From positions 1 through 32,000 of the forward strand of contig JAEOUO010000002.1 in NCBI GenBank assembly GCA_016839265.1: a stretch of 32,000 bases of DNA, in the 5' to 3' direction. The notes under the pieces were generated by a model. That model was not told the origin of the DNA. It saw only the letters and a list, made by a program, of their open reading frames with translations, and did no database searches. Position numbers and translations under genes: made by a program. Positions 621-26,191 of the stretch are shown piece after piece; the first letter of the stretch is position 1; every line of letters starts with the position of its first letter. The stretch comes from Candidatus Odinarchaeota archaeon (GTDB lineage Archaea > Asgardarchaeota > Odinarchaeia > Odinarchaeales > Odinarchaeaceae).

Positions 621-734
621 AAAACCACCATTAAAATAAACTTCATAATTGAAAGCATAAGTATATTAAAATTTCTGTAAATATATATTAAAAGTACGAG
701 TCATAATAAAAACTTTGTTAAAAAAGTGATCTTC

Positions 735-1253
735 ATGGAAGGCAGATTCGTATTTAAGATAATTATAGTAGGAGATGCGGCTGTAGGGAAAACCAGCCTA
801 GTAAGAGGTTTCATAAAAGAGAGGTTTAGATCAGATTATCTACCAACGTTAGGTGTTGACATATACTATAAACAACTAACCGTAAACTCTACGCCTGTAG
901 ACTTATCTATATGGGATATAGCCGGTCAGAAAGGCTGGGAAATTATGCACAAAAATTATTTCAAAGGATCTGACGGCTGCATAGCTGTTTTCGATTTAAC
1001 TAGAAATAAAACATTAGCGAATCTTAACTCTTGGATTCTAAAAGTTAAAGAATACACTAAACCAGATATCCCTTGCATAATATTAGGTAATAAAAGTGAT
1101 CTAAAAATAGCGATTGAAGTAAAATCTTCTAATATCGAGAAAATCACTAAAGAAACAGGTTACTTATACTTTGAAACAAGCGCTAAAACCGGTTTAAACG
1201 TTGAGGAAGCGTTTACAACTCTTGTTAACTTAATACTTGCTAAAATAAAATAG
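735..1253 (+). CDS. Rab-like small GTPase (Ras superfamily)
   Basis: G1 GDAAVGKT, G2 YLPTLG, G3 WDIAGQ, G4 NKSD, G5 ETSAK. RabF-like segments LGVDI, YFKGS, AVFDLT. ATG at 735 preferred over GTG 726. No C-terminal Cys. Confidence 0.92.
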   Translation: MEGRFVFKIIIVGDAAVGKTSLVRGFIKERFRSDYLPTLGVDIYYKQLTVNSTPVDLSIWDIAGQKGWEIMHKNYFKGSDGCIAVFDLTRNKTLANLNSWILKVKEYTKPDIPCIILGNKSDLKIAIEVKSSNIEKITKETGYLYFETSAKTGLNVEEAFTTLVNLILAKIK

Positions 1254-6394: not shown

Positions 6395-8509
6395 ATGTCT
6401 AATTCGAATACTCTTATGACATCTTTGTTTAACCCTAAATCTGTCTGTGTAATAGGGGCTTCCACTAAACCTGGTAAACTCGGTTATAATATCTTAGAGA
6501 ATATAGTGAAATACGGTTACCCAGGGCGCGTGTATCCTGTTAACCCTCATTATCAAAATATTCTCGGCTTAAAAGTTTATTCAAGTGTAAGTGAAATAGA
6601 TGATGAAATAGATTTAGCGGTTATTGTGATACCTGCGGAAGCGGTTGTTAAAGTAGCTGAAGAATGCGGTGTTAAACAGGTTAAAAACATTGTAGTTATA
6701 TCAGCCGGGTTTAAAGAGACGGGGAAAGAAGGGGCTGAAAGAGAGAAAGCTCTTAAAGATATATGTGAAAAGTATAAGATGAAGCTGCTCGGACCGAACT
6801 GTCTAGGCGTTATAGATACCTTCACACCTTTAAACGCTTCTTTCGCAGCGCAGATGCCTTTAAAAGGTAATATAGCGTTTATCTCTCAGTCCGGTGCTCT
6901 GGGAACAGCGATACTTGACTGGTCTTTTAAGAATAGAATAGGCTTCAGTAAAGTGATAAGTTTAGGTAATAAAGCAGATCTATCTGAATCGGATTTCATT
7001 GCAGCGTTAGCAGAAGACGTTAACACTAAGGTAATCCTTCTTTATATTGAAGATGTTAAAGACGGTGATAAATTTATTGAAAACCTAAGAAAAACTGTTA
7101 GAATAAAACCGGTGCTAGTTTTAAAATCAGGTTCATCCGCAGCTGGGCAAAGAGCAGCAGCCTCTCATACCGGATCTCTTGCAGGTAGTAAAATAGCTTA
7201 TGAAACCATGTTTAAACAATTCGGTGCTTTACAAGTGGAAACTATATCTGATTTATTTAATTACGCGAAGGTTTTTTCAACTCAACCTCTGCCGAAGGAT
7301 AACGCTGTATGTATTTTAACTAACGCCGGCGGGCCCGGTATTATAGCTACAGATGCCTGTGAACGGTATGGTTTAAAACTAGCTTCACTTAACTCTGAAA
7401 CTTTGAATAATCTTAGAAAACAGCTACCCTCAAACGCTTCTATTTATAATCCTGTGGATATCCTAGGTGATGCTCAACCTGAACGTTATTATACAGCTTT
7501 GGAAGCACTTAAAAATGATGATAATATAAGTTCTATAATAATTATTTTAACACCTCAAGCTACAACTAAGCCTACTGAAACTGTTTTAAAGTTAATTAAA
7601 CTCGTTGATAAACTTGATAAACCGGTAACTTTTTCTATAATGGGCGGAGAGCAAGTTACTGAAGCTAAGAAAATTTTATCCGAGAATAATATTCCCGTTT
7701 TCAGTTTTCCAGAAGATGCGGTTGAGAGTATAGCCGCTTTAACCCGTTACACGTTTATTCGCGAAAAGAAGCTGTCGCATAGAAAATTTAGAATTTCAGC
7801 GAATAAAGAAGCTGTCCGTGAAATAATTAAGAAAGTTTTAAATGAGGGCCGTCGAACTCTTTTATCAAGTGAAGCGTGTAAAATACTAGGTTTTTACGGG
7901 GTTAAAACACCTAAAGTTTATTTAGCTTCAAATAGTGATGAAGCCTGTTCTGCTGCCACTGAAATAGGTTACCCTGTTACTTTGAAAATCGCCTCACCTG
8001 ATATAATTCATAAATCTGATGTAGGGGGCGTAGCTTTAAATGTGAAAAACGAAGAGGATGTGAGGAAAATCTTCATAGGAATGGTGGCCAATGCGCACAA
8101 GTTTTTCCCGAATGCTAGAATATACGGGGTTGAAGTATACGAGTATGTTGAAAAAAGCCGAGAGGTTATAATCGGAGTTAATAAGGATCTTCAATTCGGT
8201 CACCTTTTAATGTTCGGGCTTGGTGGAGTATACGTTAATTTTCTCAGAGATGTAGCTTTCAGAATAGTGCCGGTTAATACTCAGGATATTGATGAAATGA
8301 TAAAAGAAACAAGAGTGTATACTCTACTTAAAGGAGTCCGCGGGGAGAAGCCTGCTGACATCGACTCTGTTATTAAAACTATTATTGCTGCATCTCAACT
8401 AGTGCAGGATTTCCCGGTTATATCCGAGTTAGATGTTAACCCGTTATTTGTTTATAATAAGGGTGAAGGCTGCATGGCTGTTGATGTTAAAATGTCTTTA
8501 TATATTTGA
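6395..8509 (+). CDS. acdAB: ADP-forming acetate/acyl-CoA ligase, fused alpha+beta
   Basis: CoA-binding N-terminus (VIGAS..PGKLG, GPNCLG, SQSG), phospho-His motif ASHTGSLAG, NPVD, ATP-grasp C-terminus (HKSDVGGV, FGLGG, ELDVNP). No GNAT domain. Confidence 0.93.
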   Translation: MSNSNTLMTSLFNPKSVCVIGASTKPGKLGYNILENIVKYGYPGRVYPVNPHYQNILGLKVYSSVSEIDDEIDLAVIVIPAEAVVKVAEECGVKQVKNIVVISAGFKETGKEGAEREKALKDICEKYKMKLLGPNCLGVIDTFTPLNASFAAQMPLKGNIAFISQSGALGTAILDWSFKNRIGFSKVISLGNKADLSESDFIAALAEDVNTKVILLYIEDVKDGDKFIENLRKTVRIKPVLVLKSGSSAAGQRAAASHTGSLAGSKIAYETMFKQFGALQVETISDLFNYAKVFSTQPLPKDNAVCILTNAGGPGIIATDACERYGLKLASLNSETLNNLRKQLPSNASIYNPVDILGDAQPERYYTALEALKNDDNISSIIIILTPQATTKPTETVLKLIKLVDKLDKPVTFSIMGGEQVTEAKKILSENNIPVFSFPEDAVESIAALTRYTFIREKKLSHRKFRISANKEAVREIIKKVLNEGRRTLLSSEACKILGFYGVKTPKVYLASNSDEACSAATEIGYPVTLKIASPDIIHKSDVGGVALNVKNEEDVRKIFIGMVANAHKFFPNARIYGVEVYEYVEKSREVIIGVNKDLQFGHLLMFGLGGVYVNFLRDVAFRIVPVNTQDIDEMIKETRVYTLLKGVRGEKPADIDSVIKTIIAASQLVQDFPVISELDVNPLFVYNKGEGCMAVDVKMSLYI

Positions 8510-8529
8510 AAAAAATTATAGGTGATAAT

Positions 8530-9591
8530 ATGAAATCTTTATTTGTTGTTTCATGGGAAGGGTTTTCAGGGAAAACCGCATTTATACTAGGTTTATCACA
8601 GGTTTTAATAGAGAACGGATTTAAAGTAGGTTATTTCCGTCCTATCGGGCGGCCTCAAACATCTGTAACAGAAGGGACAATAGATCCGGATGTTCTTTTA
8701 ATGAAAGAGGTTTTAAAACTACCTTTCACTTTAAGCGAATTAACCCCTATTTTAATAGAGCCTAACTATTTAAGTGTCTACGCTAAACGGGATGTTGAAA
8801 AATTAAAAAACATGATCCTAACTCAATACGGTAAACTGTCACAGAGCTCTGATATAATGATAGTTGAAGGCGGTGTTTCCCCTGAAACCATGACTGCTTT
8901 TAAATTAAATAATATAAATATCGCTGAACTCTTAAATTCAAAGGTTTTAGCTATTTCCGGTGGTGTAAGCGACAGCTCTATAGAGAAAATATTATTCTAT
9001 AAAAATATTCTAGATATGAAAGATATTCCACTAGTTGGAGCTGTTTTAAACCAGGTTCCACCGCATATGATGGAGAAAGCTGAATACGAGTACTCTGAGC
9101 TTCTTAATAAAAACGGGGTTAAAGTTTGGGGGGTAATACCTAGAAATTATGAGATTTCTTCACCGACAGTTAGAGAGCTTTTAGAATTATTAGAAGGGGA
9201 GATTCTCGTAGAAGGTGACATAAACCGTGTTATCGAAAAAATATTCATAGGAGCTATGCAAACAGAGTCTTCTTTAAAATATTTTAGAAGAAGCGGTAAT
9301 AACGCTATTATCACAGGTGGGGATCGAGCTGACATAATCTCTGCGGCTGTGGAGACTAACGCTTCCGTTATAGTTTTAACAGGTAATATGAAACCTTCAG
9401 AGCAGGTATTAGTTAAAGCTGAGGAGAAAAATATCACGGTGGTAATGGTACCTCAGGACACTTACTCAACTGTTAAAATTCTTGAAGGTCTCACTGGAAA
9501 GATTAAGCCGTCTGACACTTATAGGATAAGTTTAACAAAGAAAATGGTTTACGATCACATTCCTTGGCGTGAATTATGCGACTCTATTTAG
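8530..9591 (+). CDS. Phosphotransacetylase-N-terminal-like protein (BioD-like P-loop plus DRTGG domain)
   Basis: SGKT, GYFRPIG, IVEG, ITGGDRAD, VLTG. No PTA catalytic C-terminal domain. ATG 8530 follows GGTGAT (ORF track 8506). Confidence 0.85.
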   Translation: MKSLFVVSWEGFSGKTAFILGLSQVLIENGFKVGYFRPIGRPQTSVTEGTIDPDVLLMKEVLKLPFTLSELTPILIEPNYLSVYAKRDVEKLKNMILTQYGKLSQSSDIMIVEGGVSPETMTAFKLNNINIAELLNSKVLAISGGVSDSSIEKILFYKNILDMKDIPLVGAVLNQVPPHMMEKAEYEYSELLNKNGVKVWGVIPRNYEISSPTVRELLELLEGEILVEGDINRVIEKIFIGAMQTESSLKYFRRSGNNAIITGGDRADIISAAVETNASVIVLTGNMKPSEQVLVKAEEKNITVVMVPQDTYSTVKILEGLTGKIKPSDTYRISLTKKMVYDHIPWRELCDSI

Positions 9592-10855
9592 ATTCCTGAA
9601 GCTCCTTAATGATCTTCTCCGCGACATCCACTCTGATCTTACCTATTTTAATAAGTTCTTCAACCACTTTGTCCACGATATCTTCACTGGCACCGGCTGT
9701 GATCGCGATATTTCTAGCATGTAATCGCATATGACCTTTTTGAATACCTTCAGTAGCTAAAGCTCTAATCGCTGCGAAGTTTTGAGCTAAACCCAGTGAA
9801 GCCGCTACCTCCCCTAACTCGTTAGCTGTTTTCACATTTAAAATTTTTATAGCTAGTTGAGCTATCGGATGAGCTTTAGTCGCTCCACCTACCAGCCCTA
9901 CAGCCATAGGTAACTCTATTGAACCGACTAGATTACCTTCACTGTCCTTCTCCCATCTTGTTAAAGGTTTATATTCACCGTTTAAAGCAGCATAAGCATG
10001 AGCGCCAGCTTCTACCGCTCTAGTATCATTGCATGTTGCTAACATTAACGCTGTTACCCCGTTCATGATGCCTTTATTATGTGTAGCGCATCTGAATATA
10101 TCCGCGTCCGCGAACGCATAAGCGTCTAATATTTTATCAACAACATCTTCACCGCCTAAAGCTTCTTTATCGAATGTTGCTTTAGCTCTGCATAAACGGT
10201 AAACCGCTAGGTTCGAAATAATTCTTAAACCAACCCGGCCACTTGTTATCTGAGCTATTTTTTCCGTGAGAGCTTCACACATAGTATTAACAGCGTTAGC
10301 ACCCATCGCGTCTCTAGTGTCGACAAGTAAATGTATGACGAGCATAGAGCCTCTTATAGAGTTTATTACTCTTACAATTATGTCCTTAGCCCCTCCACCG
10401 AATCTGTTTAAAACAGGATCCTGCTCATTCGCTATTTGTAAAAGTTCTATTTTATGTTTTAAAATTTCAACTTTTTTTGCATACGGGTCTTTAACATCAA
10501 GTACTTGAATCTGACCTATCATAATAGGATCTGTGCTAGTGGCGGTAAACCCTCCTCTGATTCTAGCGAGTTTAGCCGCATTCGAAGCCGCGGCAACAAC
10601 AGACGGTTCCTCTATAGCCATAGGGATTAGATAATCCTTTCCATTTATTAGAAAGTTAACTGCTATACCTAGAGGAATCCTAGTGGTTCCTATAACGTTT
10701 TCAATCATTTTATCAGCGATATTAGTAATCGAATCGTTAACATCTCCTAGAACCTCTAAATCTTTATCAGTCAATCCTGCAAATTCTTTAACAATTTCCC
10801 TTCTCTGAGTTATATTTAATTTATAAAATCCGCTAATATCCGAGGTTTTCACCAA
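9584..10855 (-). CDS. mvaA: Class II HMG-CoA reductase
   Basis: ENVIG, IPMAIEEPSVVAA, DAMGAN, HNKGIMNG, EGIQKGHMRLH. TTG at 10855 lies 5 nt after GAAGGTGA (ORF track 10897). Confidence 0.93.
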   Translation of the reverse strand: MVKTSDISGFYKLNITQRREIVKEFAGLTDKDLEVLGDVNDSITNIADKMIENVIGTTRIPLGIAVNFLINGKDYLIPMAIEEPSVVAAASNAAKLARIRGGFTATSTDPIMIGQIQVLDVKDPYAKKVEILKHKIELLQIANEQDPVLNRFGGGAKDIIVRVINSIRGSMLVIHLLVDTRDAMGANAVNTMCEALTEKIAQITSGRVGLRIISNLAVYRLCRAKATFDKEALGGEDVVDKILDAYAFADADIFRCATHNKGIMNGVTALMLATCNDTRAVEAGAHAYAALNGEYKPLTRWEKDSEGNLVGSIELPMAVGLVGGATKAHPIAQLAIKILNVKTANELGEVAASLGLAQNFAAIRALATEGIQKGHMRLHARNIAITAGASEDIVDKVVEELIKIGKIRVDVAEKIIKELQESK

Positions 10856-11037
10856 ATCATTCACCTTCAAAATAATTTGAATAATTATTTCTCTCACTCT
10901 TATGTAAAAACTTTTCCAATAAAAATTTAATCAAAATTAAATTTAACTAACTAAACTTTTATTATAAAATACTCCAAAATCTTATATACTTAATACTAAA
11001 TCAAAGTTGTTTAAATAATATTTGGAGGTTAAAATTA

Positions 11038-11631
11038 ATGTCTGAAAAACAAACTTGGGCGGATCCTAGTCCATTAGGATTATTCGGATTTGGTTTAACA
11101 ACAATATTACTAAATTTACATAACTTCGGTTTATTAGGTGTTGCTAACACTATGGCTGTCGGCTACGGATTCTTTTATGGAGGTTTAGCTCAAGTAATAG
11201 CCGGTATAATTGATCTTAGAAAAGGTAATACTTTCGGTGGGACAGCTTTCTGCTCTTACGGTTTATTCTGGATAGGTTTAGCTACAGCTCTATCCCTTAG
11301 TTCAATGGGATTATTCCCGCTTGTGACAACTATCGACCTTGCTTGGACAATGTTCGTTTGGGGTGTTTTCACTACAATATTCTTTATAGGCTCATTTAAA
11401 ACCACTAAAGCGTTATCGTTTGTGCTAGGTAGCTTAGCTGTTTTATTCTATTTGCTTGCTATTTCTAATGCTGTAATATATCTTACTGGGAACACACTGC
11501 TCTTAACAATCACAGGTTTTGAAGGTATCATATGCGGTGCTAGTGCAATGTATACTGCTGCTGGAATAATCTTAAACGGAATGTATAATAGAACAGTGCT
11601 TCCGTTATGCCCTTGGCAGAAAAAAGACTAA
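11038..11631 (+). CDS. satP: Acetate uptake transporter (SatP/YaaH/GPR1/FUN34 family)
   Basis: ADPSPLGLFGFGLTT (NPAPLGL-type motif), GGLAQ, GNTFGGTAFCSYGLFW, about 6 TM. GGAGG RBS. Confidence 0.9.
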   Translation: MSEKQTWADPSPLGLFGFGLTTILLNLHNFGLLGVANTMAVGYGFFYGGLAQVIAGIIDLRKGNTFGGTAFCSYGLFWIGLATALSLSSMGLFPLVTTIDLAWTMFVWGVFTTIFFIGSFKTTKALSFVLGSLAVLFYLLAISNAVIYLTGNTLLLTITGFEGIICGASAMYTAAGIILNGMYNRTVLPLCPWQKKD

Positions 11632-11806: not shown

Positions 11807-12802
11807 TTAGATGTAGCCGTGTTCAGTATACCATTCGATTGTTTCTTTTAACCCTGTTCTTAAATCATATCGTGGGTGGTAGCCTAATTCTCGTTCAGCT
11901 TTTCCGATACTGTAAGCTCTATTAGAGCAAACTGAGTCCACGGTGCTGGTGTGGTATAAAAAGTTGTCTTTACCGAGTAATTTGTTTAAGCCTTGTATAG
12001 GTGCTATTAAAATTTTAGCCAGTAGTTTAGGTATATGCTTGGTGGGGGGTCTTCTACCAGTTAAATCAGCTAAGATTTCATATACTTGGTTATATGTATA
12101 TGCTTTCTCATCGCTGATTATATATGTTTGTCTATTAGATATATCGCTTTTTTCTAAAGCTAGTGTGAACCCTTCAACAACGTCTTTGACGTGAACGAAC
12201 TGGACTAAATTCTCTCCGCTGCCTACAATAAATCTTGTTCCTATAGAATTTTTAGCGAAAGATGTTATCGTCCAGTATGAGACGTCGTTTATATTTCGCG
12301 GCCCATATATTCCGGAAGGTCTTATTATTGTATAATTTAAACCTTTTCCACCATAGTTTTTAATTATCTCCTCAGCTTTTAGTTTTGATCTCCCATATTC
12401 ATAAGCGGGTTTAGGTTCAGTGTGTTCATCTCCTGGCGGATTTTTAACAGGGCCTATAACTTCAGTTGTGCTGCAATAAATAAATTGTTGAATTTTATGT
12501 TTTAAAGCAGCTTCAACTAAATGTTTTGTTCCTTCAACGTTAATTTTTTCATATAGTTTTTTGGAACCGTGGAAAGTATAATATGCTGCTAAATGGATTA
12601 CGACGTCAACTCCTTTAACTACTGCGTCGAGTGTTTCAGGTCTCCCTAGATCTCCATATCTGAATTCTGTCACCAAGTCTTTTATTAAATCTTTATTGCT
12701 GTTTTCTCTTATCATAGCGATTATCTTATATCCTTTATTTGCTAAGGACTCCACTAAATGGCTTCCTAAAAATCCAGTCGCCCCGGTTACGAGCGTTTTC
12801 AT
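11807..12802 (-). CDS. Extended SDR, NAD(P)-dependent epimerase/dehydrogenase (3beta-HSD/OleD-like)
   Basis: GATGFLG, HLAA, YCSTT, YGRSK (YxxxK), RPSGIYGP, FVHVKD. Confidence 0.85.
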   Translation of the reverse strand: MKTLVTGATGFLGSHLVESLANKGYKIIAMIRENSNKDLIKDLVTEFRYGDLGRPETLDAVVKGVDVVIHLAAYYTFHGSKKLYEKINVEGTKHLVEAALKHKIQQFIYCSTTEVIGPVKNPPGDEHTEPKPAYEYGRSKLKAEEIIKNYGGKGLNYTIIRPSGIYGPRNINDVSYWTITSFAKNSIGTRFIVGSGENLVQFVHVKDVVEGFTLALEKSDISNRQTYIISDEKAYTYNQVYEILADLTGRRPPTKHIPKLLAKILIAPIQGLNKLLGKDNFLYHTSTVDSVCSNRAYSIGKAERELGYHPRYDLRTGLKETIEWYTEHGYI

Positions 12803-12815
12803 TTAAACCAGCTCC

Positions 12816-14285
12816 TTAAAGTAACTGTGTTATCTCATATGAGTGTTTCACATCTCTTCTATATACTGTATATGTGAAAAGTGAGGGGATTGAAGCCCCG
12901 TCGTATGGTTCTATCGGACTTCTCATATACATGTCTGCTAGAGTTGTTATTCTATATACTCCAGTAGCTGGCAGCTCTTCTACTATTTTATTTTTATTAG
13001 GTTCGGATAAAGCTAAACCTACTGATTGAATTTTATCCACGTCTTTGAAGGCCGGATTTAAATGAGCTGACTCTATTATTTTAAGTACTTTAATTAAATC
13101 TTCTACAGCTATTATTTCTATAAATCTCCTCCTGTTATAGATACTAAATTCTGGGTGACTCTCCGCTAAAACGTCTAGAGTGCTTTTTTCTCTTGAAACT
13201 ATTATAGTCCATGGGTTTTCAAGGTTATTTGAGGATAATACTTTGGAACCCTTAAATTGGAGTGTTCGTCTAACACTCTGCAGCAGATACAGGTTTGAAT
13301 CTTTGGTTTTCATTTTAATTTTTCCCCCGATCACATCTAGATGTCTGCCTAGATTTTCAGCGAATTTGACTGCTTCTTCTAGTTTACCAATAAAAACTGC
13401 TTGTGTAGGTGAGTTGCAAAGCTGTTGATCGTATAAAACTATGTTTAACGCTAAGTCTTTAGCAGCTTCATTAGCTGACTCTGAATCAATTACTGCTATA
13501 CCTGTTAAAGGCCCGTTGACTACTAGACGAGGATGATATTGGTTTTCAGCTACAAGTTTAGCGATTACGGTTCTAGCAGGTTCAGCCCCCCAGAAATTAA
13601 CTACACCTATAGGGGTTTTTGTTAAAAGGTATTTAAGAGCCGTGCTGTCATGTGTGAAATAGCTGATGATTATCGCTGAAAGAATTATCTCAGCGGTCTT
13701 ATTATTTTCAGCTAATTCTTCTAAGCCTTTATAAACTTCAATAACACCGAGATAGTTTGAAATAGATGGTTTAAGTATTGTTAAATTCCCGGTTACTAGT
13801 GAGAGAGTGGTTGGAATGAGCGGCGGTATCATGGAATTACCGGAACTTATTATAAATACAGGTCCAGCTGGCATGTACCTGAAGAACTCGTTTTCAGATA
13901 TTTTAATAAACTTACAGAGACCGTCCACTCCTTTATTTAAAGCTGCTTCTAGATTGGTTTTAATATTCTCTTCGCTTAACATGTAAGCTACGAGACGAAA
14001 TTCCAAATCTATTAGACGCTCACTGTACCCTGTTAGCTCTGAGAGTGTTCTCTTCAAGTTATTTAATTCACCGGTATCTAGTTTCCTTCTCCAAATTAAC
14101 CCTAACTCATTGAATATTTTAAGTCTCTCTTCTATGGGTGTTTTCGCCAGGGCTGATTGAATTATTTTAAAATCTTTTATCATTTCACTTAAACTTTTTT
14201 CGCTGAGCTCTAATACTTCTATATCTCCAACTTTTTTTCTATTGAAATCACTTATATTTTTAGGTGTTAAAGGTTTTAACTCCAT
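12816..14285 (-). CDS. luxC: LuxC-like acyl-CoA/acyl-protein reductase (ALDH superfamily)
   Basis: GPVFIISSGN, ILKPS, NFWGAEPA, YDQQLCNSP (Cys290, matching the LuxC D-Q-x-x-C-x-S motif), C-terminal GVYRIT...EPYDG. Confidence 0.78.
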   Translation of the reverse strand: MELKPLTPKNISDFNRKKVGDIEVLELSEKSLSEMIKDFKIIQSALAKTPIEERLKIFNELGLIWRRKLDTGELNNLKRTLSELTGYSERLIDLEFRLVAYMLSEENIKTNLEAALNKGVDGLCKFIKISENEFFRYMPAGPVFIISSGNSMIPPLIPTTLSLVTGNLTILKPSISNYLGVIEVYKGLEELAENNKTAEIILSAIIISYFTHDSTALKYLLTKTPIGVVNFWGAEPARTVIAKLVAENQYHPRLVVNGPLTGIAVIDSESANEAAKDLALNIVLYDQQLCNSPTQAVFIGKLEEAVKFAENLGRHLDVIGGKIKMKTKDSNLYLLQSVRRTLQFKGSKVLSSNNLENPWTIIVSREKSTLDVLAESHPEFSIYNRRRFIEIIAVEDLIKVLKIIESAHLNPAFKDVDKIQSVGLALSEPNKNKIVEELPATGVYRITTLADMYMRSPIEPYDGASIPSLFTYTVYRRDVKHSYEITQLL

Positions 14286-14289
14286 TCTG

Positions 14290-15561
14290 TCATGCTCCTG
14301 GTTTACTCATCATCTCTTCTAATGTTCCACCGCATGCTCTCTGCAGCTCCCAGCCTTCTTCAGGTGTGAATCTTCTAATATAAGTGTACTCCTTACCATA
14401 GTACCTGTCCGACTTATGAGCTTTCATGAAATCGCCTGGATAGAATAATTCAAGCCAGGATGTGGTGAACGGGTTGAATATACCTAGAACTCCCTCCTGA
14501 CCTTCATCCTCCTCTATCAGTTCGAATGTTTTCGGGTCTAGTAGGAAGACATGTGATAAGGGGTGCGGTATTTTATTCATCACGCCAAAACGATCTATTA
14601 ATGCAGTTAACGTCTCCGTCATACCTAATACATCCATGAAAGGCACAGGCTGCTCTTCACCTGATTTATTTTTAGCCGTAAAATATTTTCTTGAAAGCTC
14701 CACTATCGTATCATATGGTGGTATATTTAAGAAACCTTTAGTTCCTCCGCCGGTTACAATAACCCCGCCTTTTCCTAGGTTAACAGGCGGCGCTGTGGTG
14801 GCTAGCTTGTATATTAGTTTTTTAAAAATATTCATTTTATCGAATTTATCTGCCATAAGGTAGACACCTGCCGGGGCTGTGAAAAAAAGTTTCGGCTCCT
14901 CTCTGCTTTTCAGAAATTTCACCACATTCTCTCTATTTAGTTCAAGTTTCTGCCAGTCTGTGGTACCGTCTTTGTTTCGAACCAAGTTCATTCCATATAA
15001 TAACGGAATATTCTTATTGTCAAGTGTTAAATCTACGAAAGCTACAAAGCTTAATTTATATCTTAACTCTGGAGCTGCCATGAATAGTGCTATGCCTTTA
15101 CCTTGCTCTAATATGTCTCCGTAAACGTATTCGAATAGATCTGTATTAGCTTTAATCATTATAGCTAAATCAAGGGGGCTCCTATATATTTTAACAGGTG
15201 TTTTACCTGTTGTTCCGCTTGAGGTGAAATATTCCCCTCCCGGCTCAACGTCTCTTATTAGGAATTGCTTCTGTCCTTCCCCTCTTAACATATCAGCGGG
15301 AACAGCTAGTTTAGCTAAATCATGGAAATCCGCATTTTTCGGGTTAATATCTAATTTCTCAAAGGTCTGCTCGTAGTATTCACTTCTCTTTGAAATAAAC
15401 TCTAAAGCTTCTCTTAATAAGTTTCTTCTAAGTTTTTTAAGGTAATCCGCGGATTTATTAAATAGTGTCTTATCGTTTATAAGATCCCAGATTTTCTTTA
15501 CATACGGATCTTTTAATAATACACTTTTTAAGGCAGTTTCAAATATTTCCCGTGAACCCAT
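14290..15561 (-). CDS. luxE: LuxE-like acyl-protein synthetase (adenylate-forming)
   Basis: FTSSGTTG, VTGGGTKG, DVLGMTE, PGD, C-terminal QRACG (Cys410, at the position of the LuxE acylation Cys). Confidence 0.75.
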   Translation of the reverse strand: MGSREIFETALKSVLLKDPYVKKIWDLINDKTLFNKSADYLKKLRRNLLREALEFISKRSEYYEQTFEKLDINPKNADFHDLAKLAVPADMLRGEGQKQFLIRDVEPGGEYFTSSGTTGKTPVKIYRSPLDLAIMIKANTDLFEYVYGDILEQGKGIALFMAAPELRYKLSFVAFVDLTLDNKNIPLLYGMNLVRNKDGTTDWQKLELNRENVVKFLKSREEPKLFFTAPAGVYLMADKFDKMNIFKKLIYKLATTAPPVNLGKGGVIVTGGGTKGFLNIPPYDTIVELSRKYFTAKNKSGEEQPVPFMDVLGMTETLTALIDRFGVMNKIPHPLSHVFLLDPKTFELIEEDEGQEGVLGIFNPFTTSWLELFYPGDFMKAHKSDRYYGKEYTYIRRFTPEEGWELQRACGGTLEEMMSKPGA

Positions 15562-15644
15562 TTAATTCACCTTAAAATATTTTTCTATTATTTTATGGAT
15601 AGATTTATTTATTTTTTTACTTTTTAATATTGGAGGGTGGTTGA

Positions 15645-16802
15645 ATGTGGAGTGAAAATGATATTCCAATCTCCCCTGTTTCTATAAGTGATATGGTTAG
15701 ACTTGTTGAAAAGCGGGATAAAGTTAAGGTTATTCGTTTCGATGTAGCTGAACCTTATTTTCCCCCTCCTGAAAAAGCTTTAGAATCAACTTGCAAAGCT
15801 GTTTTAGAGGGTTATAACCGTTATTCTCCTACTAAAGGTCTTGTTGAACTGAGAGAGGGGTTGAAAAATTTTCTTGAAGAGACTAGAAGCGTCTCCTACT
15901 CTATTGATGAAATAATTGTAACCCCAGGTTCGAAGTTTTCATCTTATTGTGTTTTTGCCTCTCTTCTAAAACCTGGTGACGAAGTTCTTCTTCTAACGCC
16001 TTTCTGGAGTAGTTTTAAAGCGATTCCAATGCTTCTAGGGATAAAACGTATTAAAGAAGTTTTAACAGACCCTCTTTACAAGGTTAACGAGGAGCGTTTT
16101 CAAAACGCTATTACTAAAAGGACTAAGCTAGTCGTTTTAAATACACCGAATAATCCTACAGGAGGTATCTTAGATAAATCAGATCTAAAGTTTATCGTCG
16201 ACTTAGCTGCTGAGAAAGGATTCTATATCTTATCCGATGAAGTTGATTGGGCTTATACCTATGACGGCCACGTTCACTATTCACCAGCTGCTTTAAGCAA
16301 TGGATTCGAGAGAACTATTATCACGGATAGTTTTTCCAAAGTTTTTTGTATGACTGGATGGCGTGTAGGGTTCGCCGCCGGTCCTAGAAACATAATAGAT
16401 AAAATGAATGTGATTCAACAACATACTGTGACAGCTCCTGTGACATTTGCACAAAAAGCATGCTTGGACATATTACTAGAATATAAAGAGTATGTGAAAA
16501 CTGTTGTGAGCTCAGCTTTAAGAAAACGGAATATGGTTGTAGAAGGGTTAAAGAGTATTACCAGACTAGAATCAACTCCCCCGCCCGGTGCGTTTTACAT
16601 ATTTCCACGTGACAGGTTTATGGTTAATTCGGAGACTTTAGCTGTTGAACTTTTAAATAAAGCGCATGTAGCGGTTGCACCGGGAACAATATTCGGGGAA
16701 GGCTCTGAGCATAATTTTAGGATATGTTATGCTATTCCTGATGAGGATTTAAAGGAGGGGGGTGAACGTTTGAGAGTTTTCTTCGAATCCGCTTCTACTT
16801 AA
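15645..16802 (+). CDS. PLP-dependent aminotransferase class I/II (AspB-like)
   Basis: YSPTKG..LRE, VTPGS, NTPNNPTG, SFSKVFCMTGWRVG, PGAFY, FRICY. The usual DExY reads DEVD. Confidence 0.88.
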   Translation: MWSENDIPISPVSISDMVRLVEKRDKVKVIRFDVAEPYFPPPEKALESTCKAVLEGYNRYSPTKGLVELREGLKNFLEETRSVSYSIDEIIVTPGSKFSSYCVFASLLKPGDEVLLLTPFWSSFKAIPMLLGIKRIKEVLTDPLYKVNEERFQNAITKRTKLVVLNTPNNPTGGILDKSDLKFIVDLAAEKGFYILSDEVDWAYTYDGHVHYSPAALSNGFERTIITDSFSKVFCMTGWRVGFAAGPRNIIDKMNVIQQHTVTAPVTFAQKACLDILLEYKEYVKTVVSSALRKRNMVVEGLKSITRLESTPPPGAFYIFPRDRFMVNSETLAVELLNKAHVAVAPGTIFGEGSEHNFRICYAIPDEDLKEGGERLRVFFESAST

Positions 16803-18510
16803 ATTTTTTGAATAGTCTCCACACTATCAACACTATAGGTATAAGGAAGGCTGCGTTTAACCCTATTATTTGAAGTATTATCATAAGCTGATCTGTTAAA
16901 GTGAGTGTTTCCGGTCTTGCGCCTAGCATCCAAATATAAATATTCGATAAAGAGCTTGCTAAAGTTATTATTGTGGCTAAAAATATGCTTAGAACAGAAG
17001 CGTAGGTTCTTATAAGACTCATTCTTGAACCTACATCTAGATTAGTTATATTTGTTTCATCTCTAGATATTTCAACCAGATTATTTATTTTTTCGAATAA
17101 AGTGTTTTTCATAATGTTTAAACCAGCTGTGATTTGAGCGTGGTTTAAGTAATTTCTATCGGGTATATGATTGATACTACTAGATATCCAGTATAAGTCT
17201 TCTAAAACCCCTATAATTCTTTTTCTAATATTAGCTACGTTTTTCACTGTTTCAATTAACTCTTCTACTTTAAGTTGTTTCGAGAGTTTTGAAGTTTCTT
17301 CACTGAGCAGTTTATTGAATGTTCTGAAGACTTTTTCTTGTACAACTCTCAGCTCCCATAATCTTTGAGGAGGTGAGAACGGCCCCATAGATATTAATGA
17401 TTTTCTCCGTATAAGCGGAAATGTAACTTCTATATGGACCCTAGGGAATGGTTTGAATATTATATCGGAGTAAGGGTTAAACCAGTCGGTTATAGAGTCT
17501 ACTATATATTCGGCTTTTCTATTCATCCATTGTCGGTCTGGTCCTCTTAAACCATAGATCTCCCAAGGATGGTTTCTGATAATATCCACGGCATTCGTAT
17601 GTTGTTCCCTGCATTTACAGTTTATATCCCATATACATATTGAATAATAATTAATTGATGTTTTATCTACTAAGTGGTTGATTATGTTCTTAGCTTCCCG
17701 CTCGTCTATTTCATATATTTTTTCAAGTATTTTAATAAAGTCCGCGTTAGCTTGGTGATCTAAATTGGTTTTTTCGCCTGTTCTAAGCTTGAAATTGCTT
17801 AGTTTTTTGATTAAAATAAATATTAATTCATCAACTGTTAAATCATTTTTCAACGTTAAATGCGGGATTCTCCCCAGCCATTCTCTTTTACCGGAGTTTA
17901 ATATTAGAAAATAGGTTATTGTTATAAAACCGCATCTGTAAATTGTTAGAAGTCGTCTAATATATCCTTTAACAGTGTTACTTGAATTCTTCCACTCGTT
18001 TGAATTAGTATCATATATTTTAAGTGTTACCGGGTTCATTAACTCTATAGGCTGAAGTTCAAAATGTAGAAACGGGTTATTTTTCAAGTATGTTTCTGAG
18101 AAAAGTATTTTGTCAATTCTATCAATGCCTCCGGTTACACCTGACCAGAAAATCCCCCAGTTTGAACCTGAGATTCTCTTTAAGATTTCTATTTTATCCT
18201 CTCGCCAATATAGTAAGTCTTCTAATTTTTTTTCAAGTTTATCACTGCTATAAGGGCCTGAGTTGAAATCAATGAAACTGTCTCCGTATAGGTACCTGCT
18301 TTCATAAACAGTTCGGTATTTCTCATGTAACCATATGTTGAAGCTGTATGTGACACCCACTGAAACACTTTTAAAGTGGAGTTCAAATTCTTTTGAAACC
18401 GGTTTCTTATGTTCTATATCCTCTATTTTTAAATTAACCAGTCCCATGTCTTTTCCTTCAATATAAGACATTAAACCACTCTCAGCATACGCTTCTCCAA
18501 TCGGTTTCAA
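16795..18510 (-). CDS. Hypothetical protein, large soluble region with two C-terminal TM helices
   Basis: 571-aa ORF with normal composition; two hydrophobic helices at the C-terminus followed by KKFK. No family recognised. Confidence 0.7.
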   Translation of the reverse strand: MKPIGEAYAESGLMSYIEGKDMGLVNLKIEDIEHKKPVSKEFELHFKSVSVGVTYSFNIWLHEKYRTVYESRYLYGDSFIDFNSGPYSSDKLEKKLEDLLYWREDKIEILKRISGSNWGIFWSGVTGGIDRIDKILFSETYLKNNPFLHFELQPIELMNPVTLKIYDTNSNEWKNSSNTVKGYIRRLLTIYRCGFITITYFLILNSGKREWLGRIPHLTLKNDLTVDELIFILIKKLSNFKLRTGEKTNLDHQANADFIKILEKIYEIDEREAKNIINHLVDKTSINYYSICIWDINCKCREQHTNAVDIIRNHPWEIYGLRGPDRQWMNRKAEYIVDSITDWFNPYSDIIFKPFPRVHIEVTFPLIRRKSLISMGPFSPPQRLWELRVVQEKVFRTFNKLLSEETSKLSKQLKVEELIETVKNVANIRKRIIGVLEDLYWISSSINHIPDRNYLNHAQITAGLNIMKNTLFEKINNLVEISRDETNITNLDVGSRMSLIRTYASVLSIFLATIITLASSLSNIYIWMLGARPETLTLTDQLMIILQIIGLNAAFLIPIVLIVWRLFKKFK

Positions 18511-19575: not shown

Positions 19576-20841
19576 CTAGGTTTGTTTAAGTTTTCGTTTA
19601 ATTTCATCATTTACAAGTTTTAGAACGTCATCTAATGAAAGGTTGAATCTCTGAGAAATTGTTTTAAGATCTTCAAATTCAGCTTTATATCTTTTCAATC
19701 CTTGAAGTGTAGTCGCTTTTTTAACTCTTATATTTAATGATTCTCCTTTAATATTAATTGTCACCGTTTCTATTTCTCTTTTAAGCTTATATCTGAATAG
19801 AACCGCTCTCCTTAACCCTAACGTGTTAGTATAGTCGAAAACAGCTGACGCTACTTTCTCCTCTTCTTCCAGAGAACATAATGCTTTCAATATATATCCC
19901 GGCCGCCCCTTCTTCATTAAAATAGGCGTTGCTGATACATCTAACGCCCCCGCCTCCATAATTTTTTCAATAGCGTAACTTAAACTCTCCCCTGTGATAT
20001 CGTCTAGATTTGTTTCAAGGATCACTACGTAATCGTTTTCTAAATTTTTTTTAGTGTTAACGTTTATCTTGTTAAATAGTATTAGTCTTAACACATTTGG
20101 GAAGTGTTTAATAATGCGGCTCCCTGCACCATAACCTTCACAAATAATTGTTAAATCATCCGGTATAGTTTTGAATACCGGTTTCAAGTTTGCTATAAGC
20201 GCTACTCCCGTCGGGGTTAAAAGTTCTGCTTTAACAGGGCCGAAGTGGAAACTAATATTATGCTTTTTGATAAGCTCGGAGACAACGGGGACGGGAATAC
20301 TAAAAACACCGTGCGAGAATTTAACGCTCCCTTCTCCCACGGGTATAGGTGTAGCGTAGACTTCAGCTTCTTCTAGTATTGAAAAATATTGGAGTCCTGC
20401 GGTTACACCTAAAATGTCGAAAACAGTATCCGGTGAGCCAAGTTCATGTAAATTTATGTTTTCACCTTTATCTGATTGATGAATTTTCATCTCCGCAGTG
20501 ATTAAGTCTTCAATTACTTTTGAAGCATAATCCTTGTAGGCTTCTTCTAAATTTGTTTTTTCAAGACTTTTATAAAAAATTTCTCTAAACAATTCAATGT
20601 TAACACTATGATATGCGCTAGATACTTCTGTGGAAAGTATTTTAGCGGTTAACCCGCTTCTTACTGTTGAAGTTAACTTGAAATCTTTGAAAGCTAAGTT
20701 TGGGTAATTCTTTTTTATAATTGAATAAACTTCCTGTAGTTTTCTCTCTTCAAATCCCATATCTATTAACGCTGATAAAAACATGTCACCGGATAAACCG
20801 CTTAAACTGCTATCTATGAAAAAGATTTTATTCCGATTCAT
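19576..20841 (-). CDS. larC: Nickel pincer cofactor nickel-insertion protein LarC
   Basis: SGLSGDMFLSALID, HELGSPD, HGVFSIPVP, ELLTPTG, GYGAG, ETNLDD, MKKGRPG, KAEFED. Confidence 0.88.
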   Translation of the reverse strand: MNRNKIFFIDSSLSGLSGDMFLSALIDMGFEERKLQEVYSIIKKNYPNLAFKDFKLTSTVRSGLTAKILSTEVSSAYHSVNIELFREIFYKSLEKTNLEEAYKDYASKVIEDLITAEMKIHQSDKGENINLHELGSPDTVFDILGVTAGLQYFSILEEAEVYATPIPVGEGSVKFSHGVFSIPVPVVSELIKKHNISFHFGPVKAELLTPTGVALIANLKPVFKTIPDDLTIICEGYGAGSRIIKHFPNVLRLILFNKINVNTKKNLENDYVVILETNLDDITGESLSYAIEKIMEAGALDVSATPILMKKGRPGYILKALCSLEEEEKVASAVFDYTNTLGLRRAVLFRYKLKREIETVTINIKGESLNIRVKKATTLQGLKRYKAEFEDLKTISQRFNLSLDDVLKLVNDEIKRKLKQT

Positions 20842-20911
20842 CTTAAAGCTTCCTTAAAAATCATCTCTTATAATCTAAGCCGGTTATAAATAAAAAATTT
20901 AGGGAGATTCT

Positions 20912-21679
20912 ATGCATATTAGGGATATTTTGGAGAAATATAAACGGAATCAACTCTCCTTAGATGCAGCTGAGAAACTTCTGAAAGCTGATGCTATTGA
21001 AAAAATCGGGGAGATCGCAGTTGTTGACGTGAACAGATCTATCCGTAAGGGCGCGGCGGAAATAGTATTGGCGGAGGGGAAATCTACAAGTGATCTTGTT
21101 GAAATAGTGAAAACACTTGATTCTAAAGGTAAAGATGTGATTGTTTCTAGATTAAGAGGAGAACAGTTTGAGACTGTAAAAAATATTTTCCCATTAGAAA
21201 AACTTGTTTTAAATGAAAAAGCGGGAATGATTATTGTAGTTAATAATAAATTTAGCTTTGTCGAAAAGAAGCCTACTGTCGGTTTAATAACCGCTGGTAC
21301 TAGTGACATTCCTGTAGCTGAAGAATGTAGGATGATCTTGGAGTATATGAACTGCAGGGTGCTAACCGCTTACGATATTGGTGTTGCTGGTATCCATCGC
21401 CTTTTCCCTCCTCTCAAGAAGATGATTGAAGAAGATGTGGCGTGTATTGTTGTCGCCGCAGGTATGGAGGGTGCATTGGCTTCAGTAGTCGCTGGGCTTG
21501 TTGACGTCCCTGTGATAGGTATTCCTGTTTCGACAGGATACGGTGAAGGAGGGAGAGGTAAAGCAGCTTTGTACTCTATGCTCCAATCATGTTCAACAGG
21601 TCTTTTAGTAGTTAACATAGATAATGGGGTTTCCGCAGGAATATGCGCTGCTTTAATAGCTAAAAAAACAATTAAATAA
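20912..21679 (+). CDS. larB: Nickel pincer cofactor biosynthesis protein LarB (NCAIR mutase-like)
   Basis: TAGTSDIPVAEE, DIGVAGIHRL, AGMEGALASVVAGL, PVSTGYG, VVNIDNG. Confidence 0.92.
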   Translation: MHIRDILEKYKRNQLSLDAAEKLLKADAIEKIGEIAVVDVNRSIRKGAAEIVLAEGKSTSDLVEIVKTLDSKGKDVIVSRLRGEQFETVKNIFPLEKLVLNEKAGMIIVVNNKFSFVEKKPTVGLITAGTSDIPVAEECRMILEYMNCRVLTAYDIGVAGIHRLFPPLKKMIEEDVACIVVAAGMEGALASVVAGLVDVPVIGIPVSTGYGEGGRGKAALYSMLQSCSTGLLVVNIDNGVSAGICAALIAKKTIK

Positions 21680-25825: not shown

Positions 25826-26191
25826 TTATTTTTCAAAAACATCTGAATAATATCGTGATAGTTTACACGTGTAATCCCCTTCTTCGCGGTTGATTTTTTC
25901 AGCGAGTTTTACTATTTTATCTTTAAATGAATCCGGATTCTCTGTTTCTTCAAGAACTAATGCTATTGATCTTTTAGTCTTTGTACCTATAAAATAGCTT
26001 AACACTCTGAGGTTTCCTATCTTTGTTTTCACGAAGTCGACTCCGTTCTGGTCCACTTTCATATTTGGGAAATGCATGGAGAGGAGTGTTGTAGGAAGAG
26101 AGGGGGGTATCCAACCTCTCCTTAGATATCTTGCCTCTACTACTCCGCCCAATTTATTATCCCATTTTATTATAATTAGGCCTAATGGCAT
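25826..26191 (-). CDS. Stand-alone longin/uDENN-like domain protein
   Basis: GLIIIKWDNKLGGVVEARY resembles the uDENN/NPRL2 (F/W)Dxx(x)G beta-hairpin. The pattern read by eye fits longin topology. Confidence 0.55.
   Translation of the reverse strand: MPLGLIIIKWDNKLGGVVEARYLRRGWIPPSLPTTLLSMHFPNMKVDQNGVDFVKTKIGNLRVLSYFIGTKTKRSIALVLEETENPDSFKDKIVKLAEKINREEGDYTCKLSRYYSDVFEK

What the first reader, a model, noticed from the sequence alone, without database searches (positions are those of the whole stretch)
11807..15561. luxE-luxC-SDR operon without luciferase: candidate archaeal carboxylic-acid reduction system
Seen: three co-directional genes with 4-nt and 13-nt gaps. The LuxE-like protein has SSGTTG and C-terminal Cys410 (codon 14332-14334), the LuxC-like protein has DQQLC290NSP (codon 13416-13418), and the extended SDR has intact GxxGxxG and YxxxK. 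No luxAB, luxD or luxG is in the window. Established: LuxE adenylates a fatty acid and passes it via its Cys to LuxC, which reduces it to an aldehyde with NADPH. Inference: acid to aldehyde to alcohol (or a further modified product) in an organism expected to use isoprenoid ether lipids. Possible substrates are fatty, isoprenoid or aromatic acids; possible products are alkyl-ether precursors or a small signal molecule. HMGR is 1 kb away and an SCP2-like gene lies in the same window. I know of no characterised archaeal system like this, but cannot verify that.
Basis: partly seen in the sequence, partly recalled or inferred. Interest (0 to 1): 0.8.

Follow-up and report, generated by a model that had tools for sequence, protein, structure and literature searches.

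The report
Archaeal LuxE-LuxC-SDR acid-reducing operon
Three tightly linked genes in an Odinarchaeum (Asgard archaeon) genome encode distant relatives, with all catalytic residues kept, of the enzyme pair that glowing bacteria use to turn an acid into an aldehyde, plus a probable aldehyde reductase; the same untested trio occurs in many anaerobic archaea, and the acid it acts on is still unknown.

Summary
Observation confirmed. The first gene encodes a divergent LuxE-type acyl-protein synthetase, not a CoA ligase: it aligns end to end with LuxE and keeps LuxE's Lys, Arg-Arg and C-terminal Cys. The second is a LuxC (fold Z 38.7 to 7XC6 versus 29.5 or less for ALDHs). The third is an NADPH-type extended SDR. 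luxE occurs in 40/401 Thermoproteota and 5/301 Thermoplasmatota genomes, and among 251 Asgards only in Odinarchaeum. luxC directly follows it in 69/69 metagenome loci; the SDR follows in 52/57. An orphan luxE whose genome has no luxC match has lost the catalytic Cys, and a natural LuxE-LuxC fusion exists. Best reading: ATP- and NADPH-driven, CoA-independent acid-to-aldehyde reduction (about 85%), then alcohol (about 60%), as dispensable salvage. The HMGR and SCP2 neighbours are not conserved. No luxD or acyl-CoA dehydrogenase was found, so an ether-lipid role is unsupported. Mevalonate bypass, thiazole and universal HMP salvage fit poorly. The substrate is unresolved. This scan already reported the module on other DNA, including other Odinarchaeum genomes. 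New variant of a known kind.

The parts
14290..15561 (-). luxE-like acyl-protein synthetase (423 aa): ANL adenylating core without the C-terminal subdomain, ending in a flexible Cys arm
   Evidence: HH profile vs LuxE: probability 99.85, E 1e-30, 364 columns end to end; vs PaaK only 97 columns, E 5e-9. Family profile's best PDB hit is 7xc6_E. PaaK/ANL fold. Residues 409-423 have pLDDT under 50.
15205..15222 (-). SSGTTG phosphate-binding loop (residues 114-119)
   Evidence: S114-T117 invariant in 111 homologues and in distant members.
14737..14739 (-). Lys275 in GGGxK, equivalent to catalytic LuxE Lys238
   Evidence: Aligned to LuxE GGGWK; K238A inactivates LuxE (PMC9157457); invariant.
14371..14376 (-). 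Arg396-Arg397, equivalent to LuxE Arg354/Arg355
   Evidence: R397 invariant and R396 nearly so; PMC9157457.
14332..14334 (-). Cys410, acyl-carrier cysteine (LuxE Cys364 equivalent)
   Evidence: Invariant in 111 homologues; RACG aligns with LuxE RGCA; changed to Ser in the luxC-less orphan of G699.
12816..14285 (-). luxC-like acyl-protein thioester reductase (489 aa)
   Evidence: PF05893 E 6e-34; family profile's only PDB hit is 7xc6_A, E 1e-17; model pLDDT 95; Z 38.7, rmsd 2.3, 445 aligned to 7xc6_A, next best ALDH Z 29.5.
13416..13418 (-). Cys290, catalytic thioester cysteine (LuxC Cys296 equivalent)
   Evidence: Aligned; invariant in 116 homologues.
11807..12802 (-). Extended SDR (331 aa), HpnA/3-beta-HSD-like, NADP(H)-type
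   Evidence: PF01370 E 4e-49; best NCBIfam HpnA, below cut-off; best PDB 3wj7, E 6e-38; S111, Y136, K140 invariant and Arg32 in 41/43.
12764..12784 (-). SDR glycine-rich dinucleotide loop GxxGxxG (7-13)
12383..12397 (-). SDR catalytic YxxxK (136-140)
15567..15571 (-). Shine-Dalgarno-like GGTGA before luxE
   Evidence: Read from the sequence; function inferred.
14295..14298 (-). GGAG inside the end of luxE, in front of the luxC start
   Evidence: inferred translational coupling.
12812..12815 (-). GGAG in the luxC-SDR gap
   Evidence: inferred.
9584..10897 (-). Class II HMG-CoA reductase: a neighbour, not part of the module
   Evidence: TIGR00532; not a conserved neighbour outside Odinarchaeum.

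Best explanation
The three genes form one operon for a CoA-independent, two-protein carboxylic acid reductase plus a carbonyl reductase. Step 1: the LuxE-like protein uses ATP (SSGTTG, K275, R397, D377) to adenylate a free carboxylic acid and captures the acyl group on C410 of its flexible tail. Step 2: the tail hands the acyl group to C290 of the bound LuxC-like protein, which releases the aldehyde using NAD(P)H. Step 3: the SDR most likely reduces that aldehyde to the primary alcohol with NADPH. Shown here: gene order, homology, catalytic residue conservation and co-occurrence. Inferred from LuxCE biochemistry: steps 1-2 (about 85%). Inferred from the SDR family and its coupling to the pair: step 3 (about 60%). 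No acid-generating enzyme travels with the trio, the reaction costs ATP plus two reductions, and the module is patchy and decays when split. I therefore read it as dispensable salvage or repair: one conserved, probably short or polar-substituted acid, scavenged or formed by damage, is returned to a usable aldehyde or alcohol. The acid is not identified. I put about 30% on a vitamin/cofactor-type heteroaromatic acid (4-pyridoxate is the candidate that best fits this host, which lacks PdxS), about 30% on an aliphatic or isoprenoid acid, and the rest on other acids.
For: HH A1 vs LuxE 99.85%, 364 columns including the Cys motif, against 97 columns for PaaK. K275, R397 and C410 are invariant and map onto LuxE K238, R355 and C364 (PMC9157457). 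LuxC fold Z 38.7 vs 29.5 or less. Complex prediction: score 0.74, best of 3 controls 0.00; the mark was reached by 58 of 80 solved complexes and 2 of 110 mismatched pairs (counts hold only roughly, own alignments used); runs share at least 58% of contacts, partner pLDDT at least 83. A like complex (7XC6) is solved, so this shows likeness, not binding. luxC follows luxE in 69/69 metagenome loci, the SDR in 52/57. Natural LuxE-LuxC fusion P0251. Orphan luxE in G699 (no luxC match in that assembly) carries C410S, K275R and E316G, while every other full-length copy keeps these residues. The SDR's closest structure is 3wj7, which I recall as Gox2253; bioRxiv 10.64898/2026.10.06.757028 calls Gox2253 an aldehyde reductase. 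Arg32 with no acidic residue suggests NADPH (established SDR rule). LuxC Phe297, needed for activity in the myristate assay (PMC9157457), is Ser in 115/116 family members and Asn here.
Against: No biochemistry and no expression data exist for any member. Identity to LuxE and LuxC is only 16-18%. The SDR is missing beside the pair in 5/57 loci and not found in G553, so step 3 is not obligatory. The SDR's invariant S-x-T-E motif also resembles nucleotide-sugar dehydratases/decarboxylases, so it could do other chemistry (own knowledge). No transporter, kinase or pathway gene is a conserved neighbour, and no riboswitch or shared operator was found, so the salvage role is inference.
Confidence: 0.62

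Rival explanations
1. Long-chain fatty or isoprenoid acids are reduced to fatty alcohols or prenols for ether-lipid synthesis or lipid recycling.
For: Canonical LuxCE acts on myristate (PMC9157457). The SDR's closest families act on lipophilic carbonyls (HpnA, SdmB, OleD). HMGR is 1 kb away here and 7-15 kb away in Thermosphaera-like genomes and G729. Thermofilaceae, which carry the trio, need a polar-lipid fraction or culture filtrate of other crenarchaea (PMC4673724, PMC6965361).
Against: No LuxD and no acyl-CoA dehydrogenase in five carriers including the host. 44/45 carriers have HMGR, and all 33 tested have a polyprenyl synthase. No acyltransferase, alkyl-DHAP synthase or prenol kinase is a conserved neighbour. 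The UbiA neighbour is confined to one lineage and persists where the SDR is disrupted. Phe297 is replaced by Ser/Asn.
Confidence: 0.25
2. Thiamine-fragment salvage (thiazole-acetate to HET, or pyrimidine-5-carboxylate to HMP), as earlier scan notes proposed for bacterial TPP-riboswitch LuxE/LuxC/OarX operons.
For: ThiC is found in 4/28 Thermoproteota carriers against 18/29 non-carriers. A distant family member sits divergently beside an NCS2 permease.
Against: ThiM is found in only 2/33 carriers. No ThiD over cut-off in three complete Thermofilaceae genomes or a complete Thermosphaera-like genome. This host has ThiC. No TPP riboswitch. The SDR is extended, not the FabG-like OarX type those notes describe. 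Collapsed to about 10 lineages the ThiC deficit is not significant (P about 0.32).
Confidence: 0.1
3. Vitamin B6 salvage: E+C reduce 4-pyridoxate to pyridoxal, and the SDR interconverts pyridoxal and pyridoxine.
For: PdxS is not found in this genome or in the complete sister genome, and is found in only 6/33 carriers (3/28 Thermoproteota vs 12/29 non-carriers). The control family NadA shows no such deficit (10/28 vs 13/29). An aldehyde end product would explain SDR-less loci. The polar Ser/Asn beside the catalytic Cys fits a polar substrate.
Against: No pyridoxal kinase over cut-off in any of 62 genomes. Genomes that lost luxC or the SDR also lack PdxS. Methanomassiliicoccales carriers have PdxS. 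Lineage-collapsed P is about 0.35. No B6 gene is a conserved neighbour; the adjacent aminotransferase is Odinarchaeum-specific.
Confidence: 0.15
4. The first protein is a PaaK-type CoA ligase and the second a generic (acylating) aldehyde dehydrogenase working oxidatively; the SDR is an unrelated nucleotide-sugar enzyme.
For: Fold searches rank PaaK-type ligases first. JGI names some homologues 'phenylacetate-CoA ligase'. The second protein has a weak PF00171 hit.
Against: LuxE is resolved for only 118 residues in 7XC6 (PMC9157457), so it can hardly rank in a fold search. Profile similarity to LuxE is end to end, to PaaK only N-terminal. The ANL C-terminal subdomain is absent and its Lys is replaced by GGGxK. 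LuxC, not ALDH, is the clear best fold. The Cys is lost only where luxC is lost.
Confidence: 0.07
5. Bypass or repair of the mevalonate pathway: free HMG is reduced to mevaldate and then to mevalonate.
For: The reaction order fits. HMGR lies nearby in three lineages. Class II HMGR is found in 27/28 Thermoproteota carriers vs 19/29 non-carriers.
Against: Carriers keep HMGR (44/45). Methanomassiliicoccales carriers and G894 have class I HMGR. I saw no invariant basic residue in the predicted acid pocket for a second carboxylate (inference from the motif alignment only).
Confidence: 0.05

Closest known systems
LuxC-LuxE fatty acid reductase of luminous bacteria (Photobacterium phosphoreum, PDB 7XC6; PMC9157457, PMC6279958; Pfam PF05893/PF04443)
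   Same: ANL core lacking the C-terminal subdomain; GGGxK lysine, Arg-Arg and C-terminal Cys; LuxC fold with a single catalytic Cys; predicted interface uses the LuxE segments resolved in 7XC6.
   Different: 16-18% identity; this LuxE falls below the PF04443 and NF052244 cut-offs; order luxE-luxC-SDR instead of luxCDABE; no luxD, luxAB or luxG; LuxC F297 is Ser/Asn; an SDR follows; anaerobic archaeal hosts; substrate unknown.
Gox2253 (PDB 3WJ7; the link of entry to name is from my own knowledge) and HpnA/SdmB/OleD-type extended SDRs
   Same: Extended SDR, Ser-Tyr-Lys triad, NADP(H)-type loop; best PDB and NCBIfam matches.
   Different: Below every equivalog cut-off (HpnA 185 vs 368 bits); own invariant motifs (HLAAYY, CSxTE); coupled to a LuxE/LuxC pair.
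Carboxylic acid reductases (CAR, Nocardia/Mycobacterium type) and NRPS-like acid reductases (own knowledge)
   Same: Net reaction acid + ATP + NADPH to aldehyde through an adenylate and a thioester.
   Different: CAR uses a phosphopantetheinyl carrier and an SDR-type R domain; here a protein Cys carries the acyl group and an ALDH-fold enzyme reduces it, with no PPTase needed.
PaaK-type aryl-CoA ligases (2Y27, 4R1L) and FlxY/DVU1553 ligases
   Same: Shared ANL core fold (Z about 25) and SSGT loop.
   Different: They keep the CoA-binding C-terminal subdomain; profile match is limited to the first 126 residues.

Membership tests
LuxE acyl-protein synthetase | Score over the PF04443 / NF052244 cut-off | tested here: not met
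   No PF04443 hit; NF052244 17 bits vs 550. A few homologues carry a precomputed PF04443 hit.
LuxE acyl-protein synthetase | End-to-end homology, ANL core without the C-terminal subdomain | tested here: met
   HH 99.85%, 364 columns; model ends in a short low-confidence tail; PaaK-like core.
LuxE acyl-protein synthetase | Catalytic Lys in GGGxK, Arg pair, C-terminal acyl-carrier Cys | tested here: met
   K275, R396/R397, C410.
LuxE acyl-protein synthetase | ATP-dependent self-acylation with a long-chain fatty acid | not testable with these tools
   Needs biochemistry.
LuxC acyl-protein/acyl-CoA reductase | PF05893 over cut-off, LuxC fold, catalytic Cys | tested here: met
   118 bits vs 21; Z 38.7, rmsd 2.3, 445 aligned; C290 invariant.
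LuxC acyl-protein/acyl-CoA reductase | Equivalog NF052251 (long-chain specificity) | tested here: not met
   45 bits vs 750; F297 is Ser/Asn and S166 is Pro.
LuxC acyl-protein/acyl-CoA reductase | NADPH-dependent aldehyde formation | not testable with these tools
   Needs an assay.
lux bioluminescence operon | luxAB luciferase and luxD transferase in the genome | tested here: not met
   No PF02273 match; PF00296 hits match Mer/F420 models best; none at all in three complete carriers.
PaaK phenylacetate-CoA ligase | Full-length homology including the CoA-binding C-terminal subdomain | tested here: not met
   16 bits vs 646-700; 97 columns only.
Extended SDR | GxxGxxG, Ser-Tyr-Lys triad, PF01370 | tested here: met
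HpnA / Gox2253-like aldehyde reductases | Equivalog score and aldehyde reductase activity | tested here: inconclusive
   Best match but below cut-off; best PDB hit 3wj7; activity not testable.
TPP-riboswitch LuxE/LuxC/OarX salvage operons (unpublished scan notes) | TPP riboswitch, thiamine genes or importer next to the module, downstream ThiD/ThiM | tested here: not met
   No Rfam hit in six loci; no such neighbours; ThiM in 2/33 and no ThiD over cut-off in four complete carriers.

The most novel reading that the evidence does not exclude
The trio is a thermostable, CoA- and phosphopantetheine-independent carboxylic acid reductase. It performs an undescribed salvage step in anaerobic archaea: it returns an oxidised vitamin fragment (for example 4-pyridoxate, filling the PLP-supply hole in Odinarchaeum and other PdxS-less carriers) or an oxidised isoprenoid to a usable aldehyde or alcohol. 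It may act on the unidentified factor from other crenarchaea that Thermofilaceae need for growth.
Probability: 0.25. Interest if true: 0.8.

Novelty: new variant of a known kind. Interest (0 to 1): 0.52.

Why it matters
LuxCE chemistry has been characterised in bioluminescence. I found no paper on an archaeal LuxE/LuxC system in the searchable library. A conserved archaeal version points to an unrecognised reductive step in about a tenth of Thermoproteota species. A heat-stable acid-to-aldehyde/alcohol enzyme set that needs no CoA or PPTase would also be a useful biocatalyst. It says little about eukaryote origins: among 251 Asgard genomes only Odinarchaeum has it.

Tried and rejected
Single-sequence Pfam and PDB searches do not recognise the LuxE-like protein; profiles were needed. 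LuxE itself did not appear in the fold lists, which is uninformative because only 118 of its residues are solved. Neighbourhood surveys of 80 metagenome loci and about 45 species-level genomes found no fourth conserved gene. UbiA/radical SAM and ilvBC (Methanomassiliicoccales), proABC, ComB-like, glutaredoxin/FTR, lipoate ligase, HMGR and the aminotransferase are each lineage-specific. The idea that LuxC has a truncated C-terminal tail (shorter tunnel) was not supported: the fold aligns to residue 479 of 488, and a C-terminal profile search found nothing relevant. Genome-content tests: HMGR, polyprenyl synthase, ThiM, ThiC, ThiD, PdxS, PdxK and NadA gave no signal that survives collapsing kin. 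Gene trees recover the same clades for all three genes, but the backbone is unresolved, so no donor for Odinarchaeum is claimed. No riboswitch and no shared palindrome upstream. The sigma-70 scan is at chance level and not applicable. No RNA holder was listed. The T. adornatum proteomics supplement gave no match to the terms searched. The T. pendens genome paper was not held.


Full report
Observation. Each start has a Shine-Dalgarno-like word, and GC content matches the rest of the window. The host is an Odinarchaeum. The assembly is 97% complete.

First gene. On its own it escapes PF04443 and gives only faint LuxE, FlxY and PaaK scores. It heads a tight family: 187 homologues, the top 120 at 57-91% identity. 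Every source name that gives an organism is archaeal. The family profile finds LuxE of 7XC6 as its best PDB sequence (E 6e-5; PaaK 0.14). Its full-length distant hits in a 1.8-billion-protein search are PF04443 proteins. Profile-profile comparison aligns 364 columns to LuxE at 99.85% probability, down to the terminal Cys motif, but only 97 N-terminal columns to PaaK. The model (pLDDT 87) has the PaaK/ANL core and a low-confidence tail in place of the C-terminal subdomain, which is how LuxE is described (PMC9157457, PMC6279958). LuxE's catalytic K238, R354/R355 and C364 correspond to K275, R396/R397 and C410; K275, R397 and C410 are invariant in 111 sequences and nearly so in members down to 25% identity. 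An ESM Atlas feature search agrees: after two unnamed archaeal clusters, the named neighbours are LuxE.

Second gene. It hits PF05893 at E 6e-34. The family profile's only PDB hit is LuxC. The model (pLDDT 95) matches 7xc6_A at Z 38.7, rmsd 2.3 over 445 residues, well above all ALDHs (29.5 or less). C290 is invariant. Two residues at the cleft entrance differ from luminous LuxC: S166 is Pro in all members, and F297, whose loss nearly abolishes activity in the myristate assay (PMC9157457), is Ser in 115/116 and Asn in this protein. This hints at a different, perhaps more polar, acyl group (inference).

Third gene. It is an extended SDR with invariant S111, Y136 and K140, and Arg32 in 41/43, which by the established SDR rule favours NADP(H). 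Its best matches are HpnA, SdmB and OleD (all below cut-off) and PDB 3wj7. I recall 3wj7 as Gox2253, which a preprint calls an aldehyde reductase. It is a distinct orthologous group (53-89% identity; named sources archaeal).

The genes work together. luxC directly follows luxE in 69/69 metagenome loci with room to see it, and the SDR follows in 52/57. In one sample of 401 Thermoproteota genomes, 40 have luxE and 37 the SDR orthologue; 35 have both, 34 of them in the same order on one contig. luxE is also in 5/301 Thermoplasmatota and, among 251 Asgards, only in the four Odinarchaeum genomes. One genome with an unlinked pair keeps the SDR elsewhere. A distant member is a single LuxE-LuxC polypeptide with both Cys motifs (P0251). 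A complex prediction supports binding (0.74, best of three controls 0.00; mark reached by 58 of 80 solved complexes and 2 of 110 mismatched pairs, counts only roughly applicable; contact agreement at least 58%, partner pLDDT at least 83). Its interface uses the LuxE segments seen in 7XC6, but since that complex is solved this shows likeness only. The most telling evidence is a natural experiment. Three related genomes have no luxC match; one retains a 58-residue SDR remnant right after luxE. In the most diverged orphan (G699), luxE carries C410S, K275R, E316G and F172I, whereas every other full-length copy keeps these residues. The carrier Cys therefore appears to be maintained for hand-over to LuxC, which argues against a free-standing CoA ligase. 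The caveat is that this is one case, in an incomplete assembly.

Mechanism. Acid + ATP gives acyl-AMP, then acyl-S-C410, then acyl-S-C290; NAD(P)H releases the aldehyde, and the SDR probably reduces it to the alcohol. The first two steps follow from LuxCE biochemistry and residue conservation (about 85%). The last is inferred (about 60%), and the SDR is absent at about a tenth of loci.

What acid? No fourth gene is conserved. The SCP2 match is sub-threshold. Bioluminescence is excluded: there is no LuxD, and the luciferase-fold genes are Mer-like. Fatty-acid chemistry lacks support: no acyl-CoA dehydrogenase in five carriers, and one AMP-binding enzyme in the host. An isoprenoid bypass is not needed, since HMGR is in 44/45 carriers and polyprenyl synthase in all tested; class II HMGR is common in non-carriers too. 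Earlier scan notes on bacterial TPP-riboswitch LuxE/LuxC operons suggested thiamine salvage, so I tested it. ThiM is in 2/33 carriers, ThiD is not found in four complete carriers, no riboswitch is present, and this host has ThiC. ThiC (4/28 vs 18/29) and PdxS (3/28 vs 12/29) are rarer in Thermoproteota carriers while NadA is not, but with about ten independent lineages neither deficit is significant. The host and its complete sister genome lack PdxS, so they need some B6 supply route, yet no pyridoxal kinase passes cut-off anywhere, and genomes that lost luxC also lack PdxS. The cost of the reaction, the lack of an acid-making partner, the patchy spread and repeated decay (split SDR in G578, split luxC in G817, orphans) fit best with dispensable salvage or repair of one conserved acid. 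Its identity is open.

Comparison and novelty. The system works like the LuxCE reductase. LuxC is a member of its Pfam family. LuxE is a divergent branch that fails the family cut-off but meets the mechanistic features. It is not a lux operon, not PaaK and not a CAR. I found no paper on an archaeal LuxE/LuxC system in the library searched. This scan has reported the same module several times on other DNA, including other Odinarchaeum genomes; those notes are unchecked and are not counted as support. Verdict: real, conserved and uncharacterised; new variant of a known kind; interest 0.52.

Noticed in passing
L032:2668-10655 and L113:2652-10648: A distant LuxE/LuxC pair (fused in P0251, separate in Theionarchaea) ends a co-directional cluster: carbamoyltransferase, unknown protein, RaSEA-like radical SAM (TIGR01210 over cut-off), SPASM radical SAM, with a divergent TrmB regulator. 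It looks like an undescribed archaeal biosynthetic or nucleoside-modifying cluster with no SDR.
   Followed up: partly
L169 (G699), L167 (G659), L168 (G651), L188 (G579): Stepwise decay of the operon in related genomes: luxC lost, SDR remnant left, orphan luxE losing its catalytic Cys and Lys; in G579 only the SDR remains.
   Followed up: yes
P0288, P0295, P0305; ESM Atlas cluster rank 3: A second, PF04443-positive archaeal LuxE group exists (170 members, commonest phylum Promethearchaeota); some representatives carry about 150 extra C-terminal residues, one with a weak winged-helix match.
   Followed up: no
L209:6560-11711: A distant luxE-luxC pair flanked by a FIST-domain gene upstream and a V4R-domain gene downstream, suggesting a small-molecule sensing context.
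   Followed up: no
L210:4405-8711; contig of P0259: Other distant members lie beside an NCS2 (xanthine/uracil-type) permease, or beside a sulfotransferase, a sulfatase and a Zn-alcohol dehydrogenase.
   Followed up: no
G000 and G001, whole genomes: Odinarchaeum has no PdxS match and no pyridoxal kinase over cut-off, though it encodes PLP enzymes (for example window 15645-16802): an open PLP-supply hole.
   Followed up: partly
window 13413-13415: The residue after LuxC's catalytic Cys is Asn here but Ser in all 115 other aligned members.
   Followed up: no
window 19576-21679: larC and larB (nickel-pincer cofactor biosynthesis) in divergent arrangement, conserved in Odinarchaeum, next to a DtxR/FeoA/FeoB block.
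   Followed up: no
window 726-1253, 27511-28443, 25826-26191: Asgard-type eukaryote-like genes: a Ras/Rab-family GTPase, a weak longin-domain match (E 5e-4), and a small protein with no family.
   Followed up: no
window 6395-11631: ADP-forming acyl-CoA synthetase, a DRTGG/Pta-N-like gene, class II HMGR and an acetate transporter (SatP) cluster just downstream of the operon.
   Followed up: partly
window 16795-18510 and 1426-2934: Two long ORFs (571 and 502 aa) without any credible family match.
   Followed up: no
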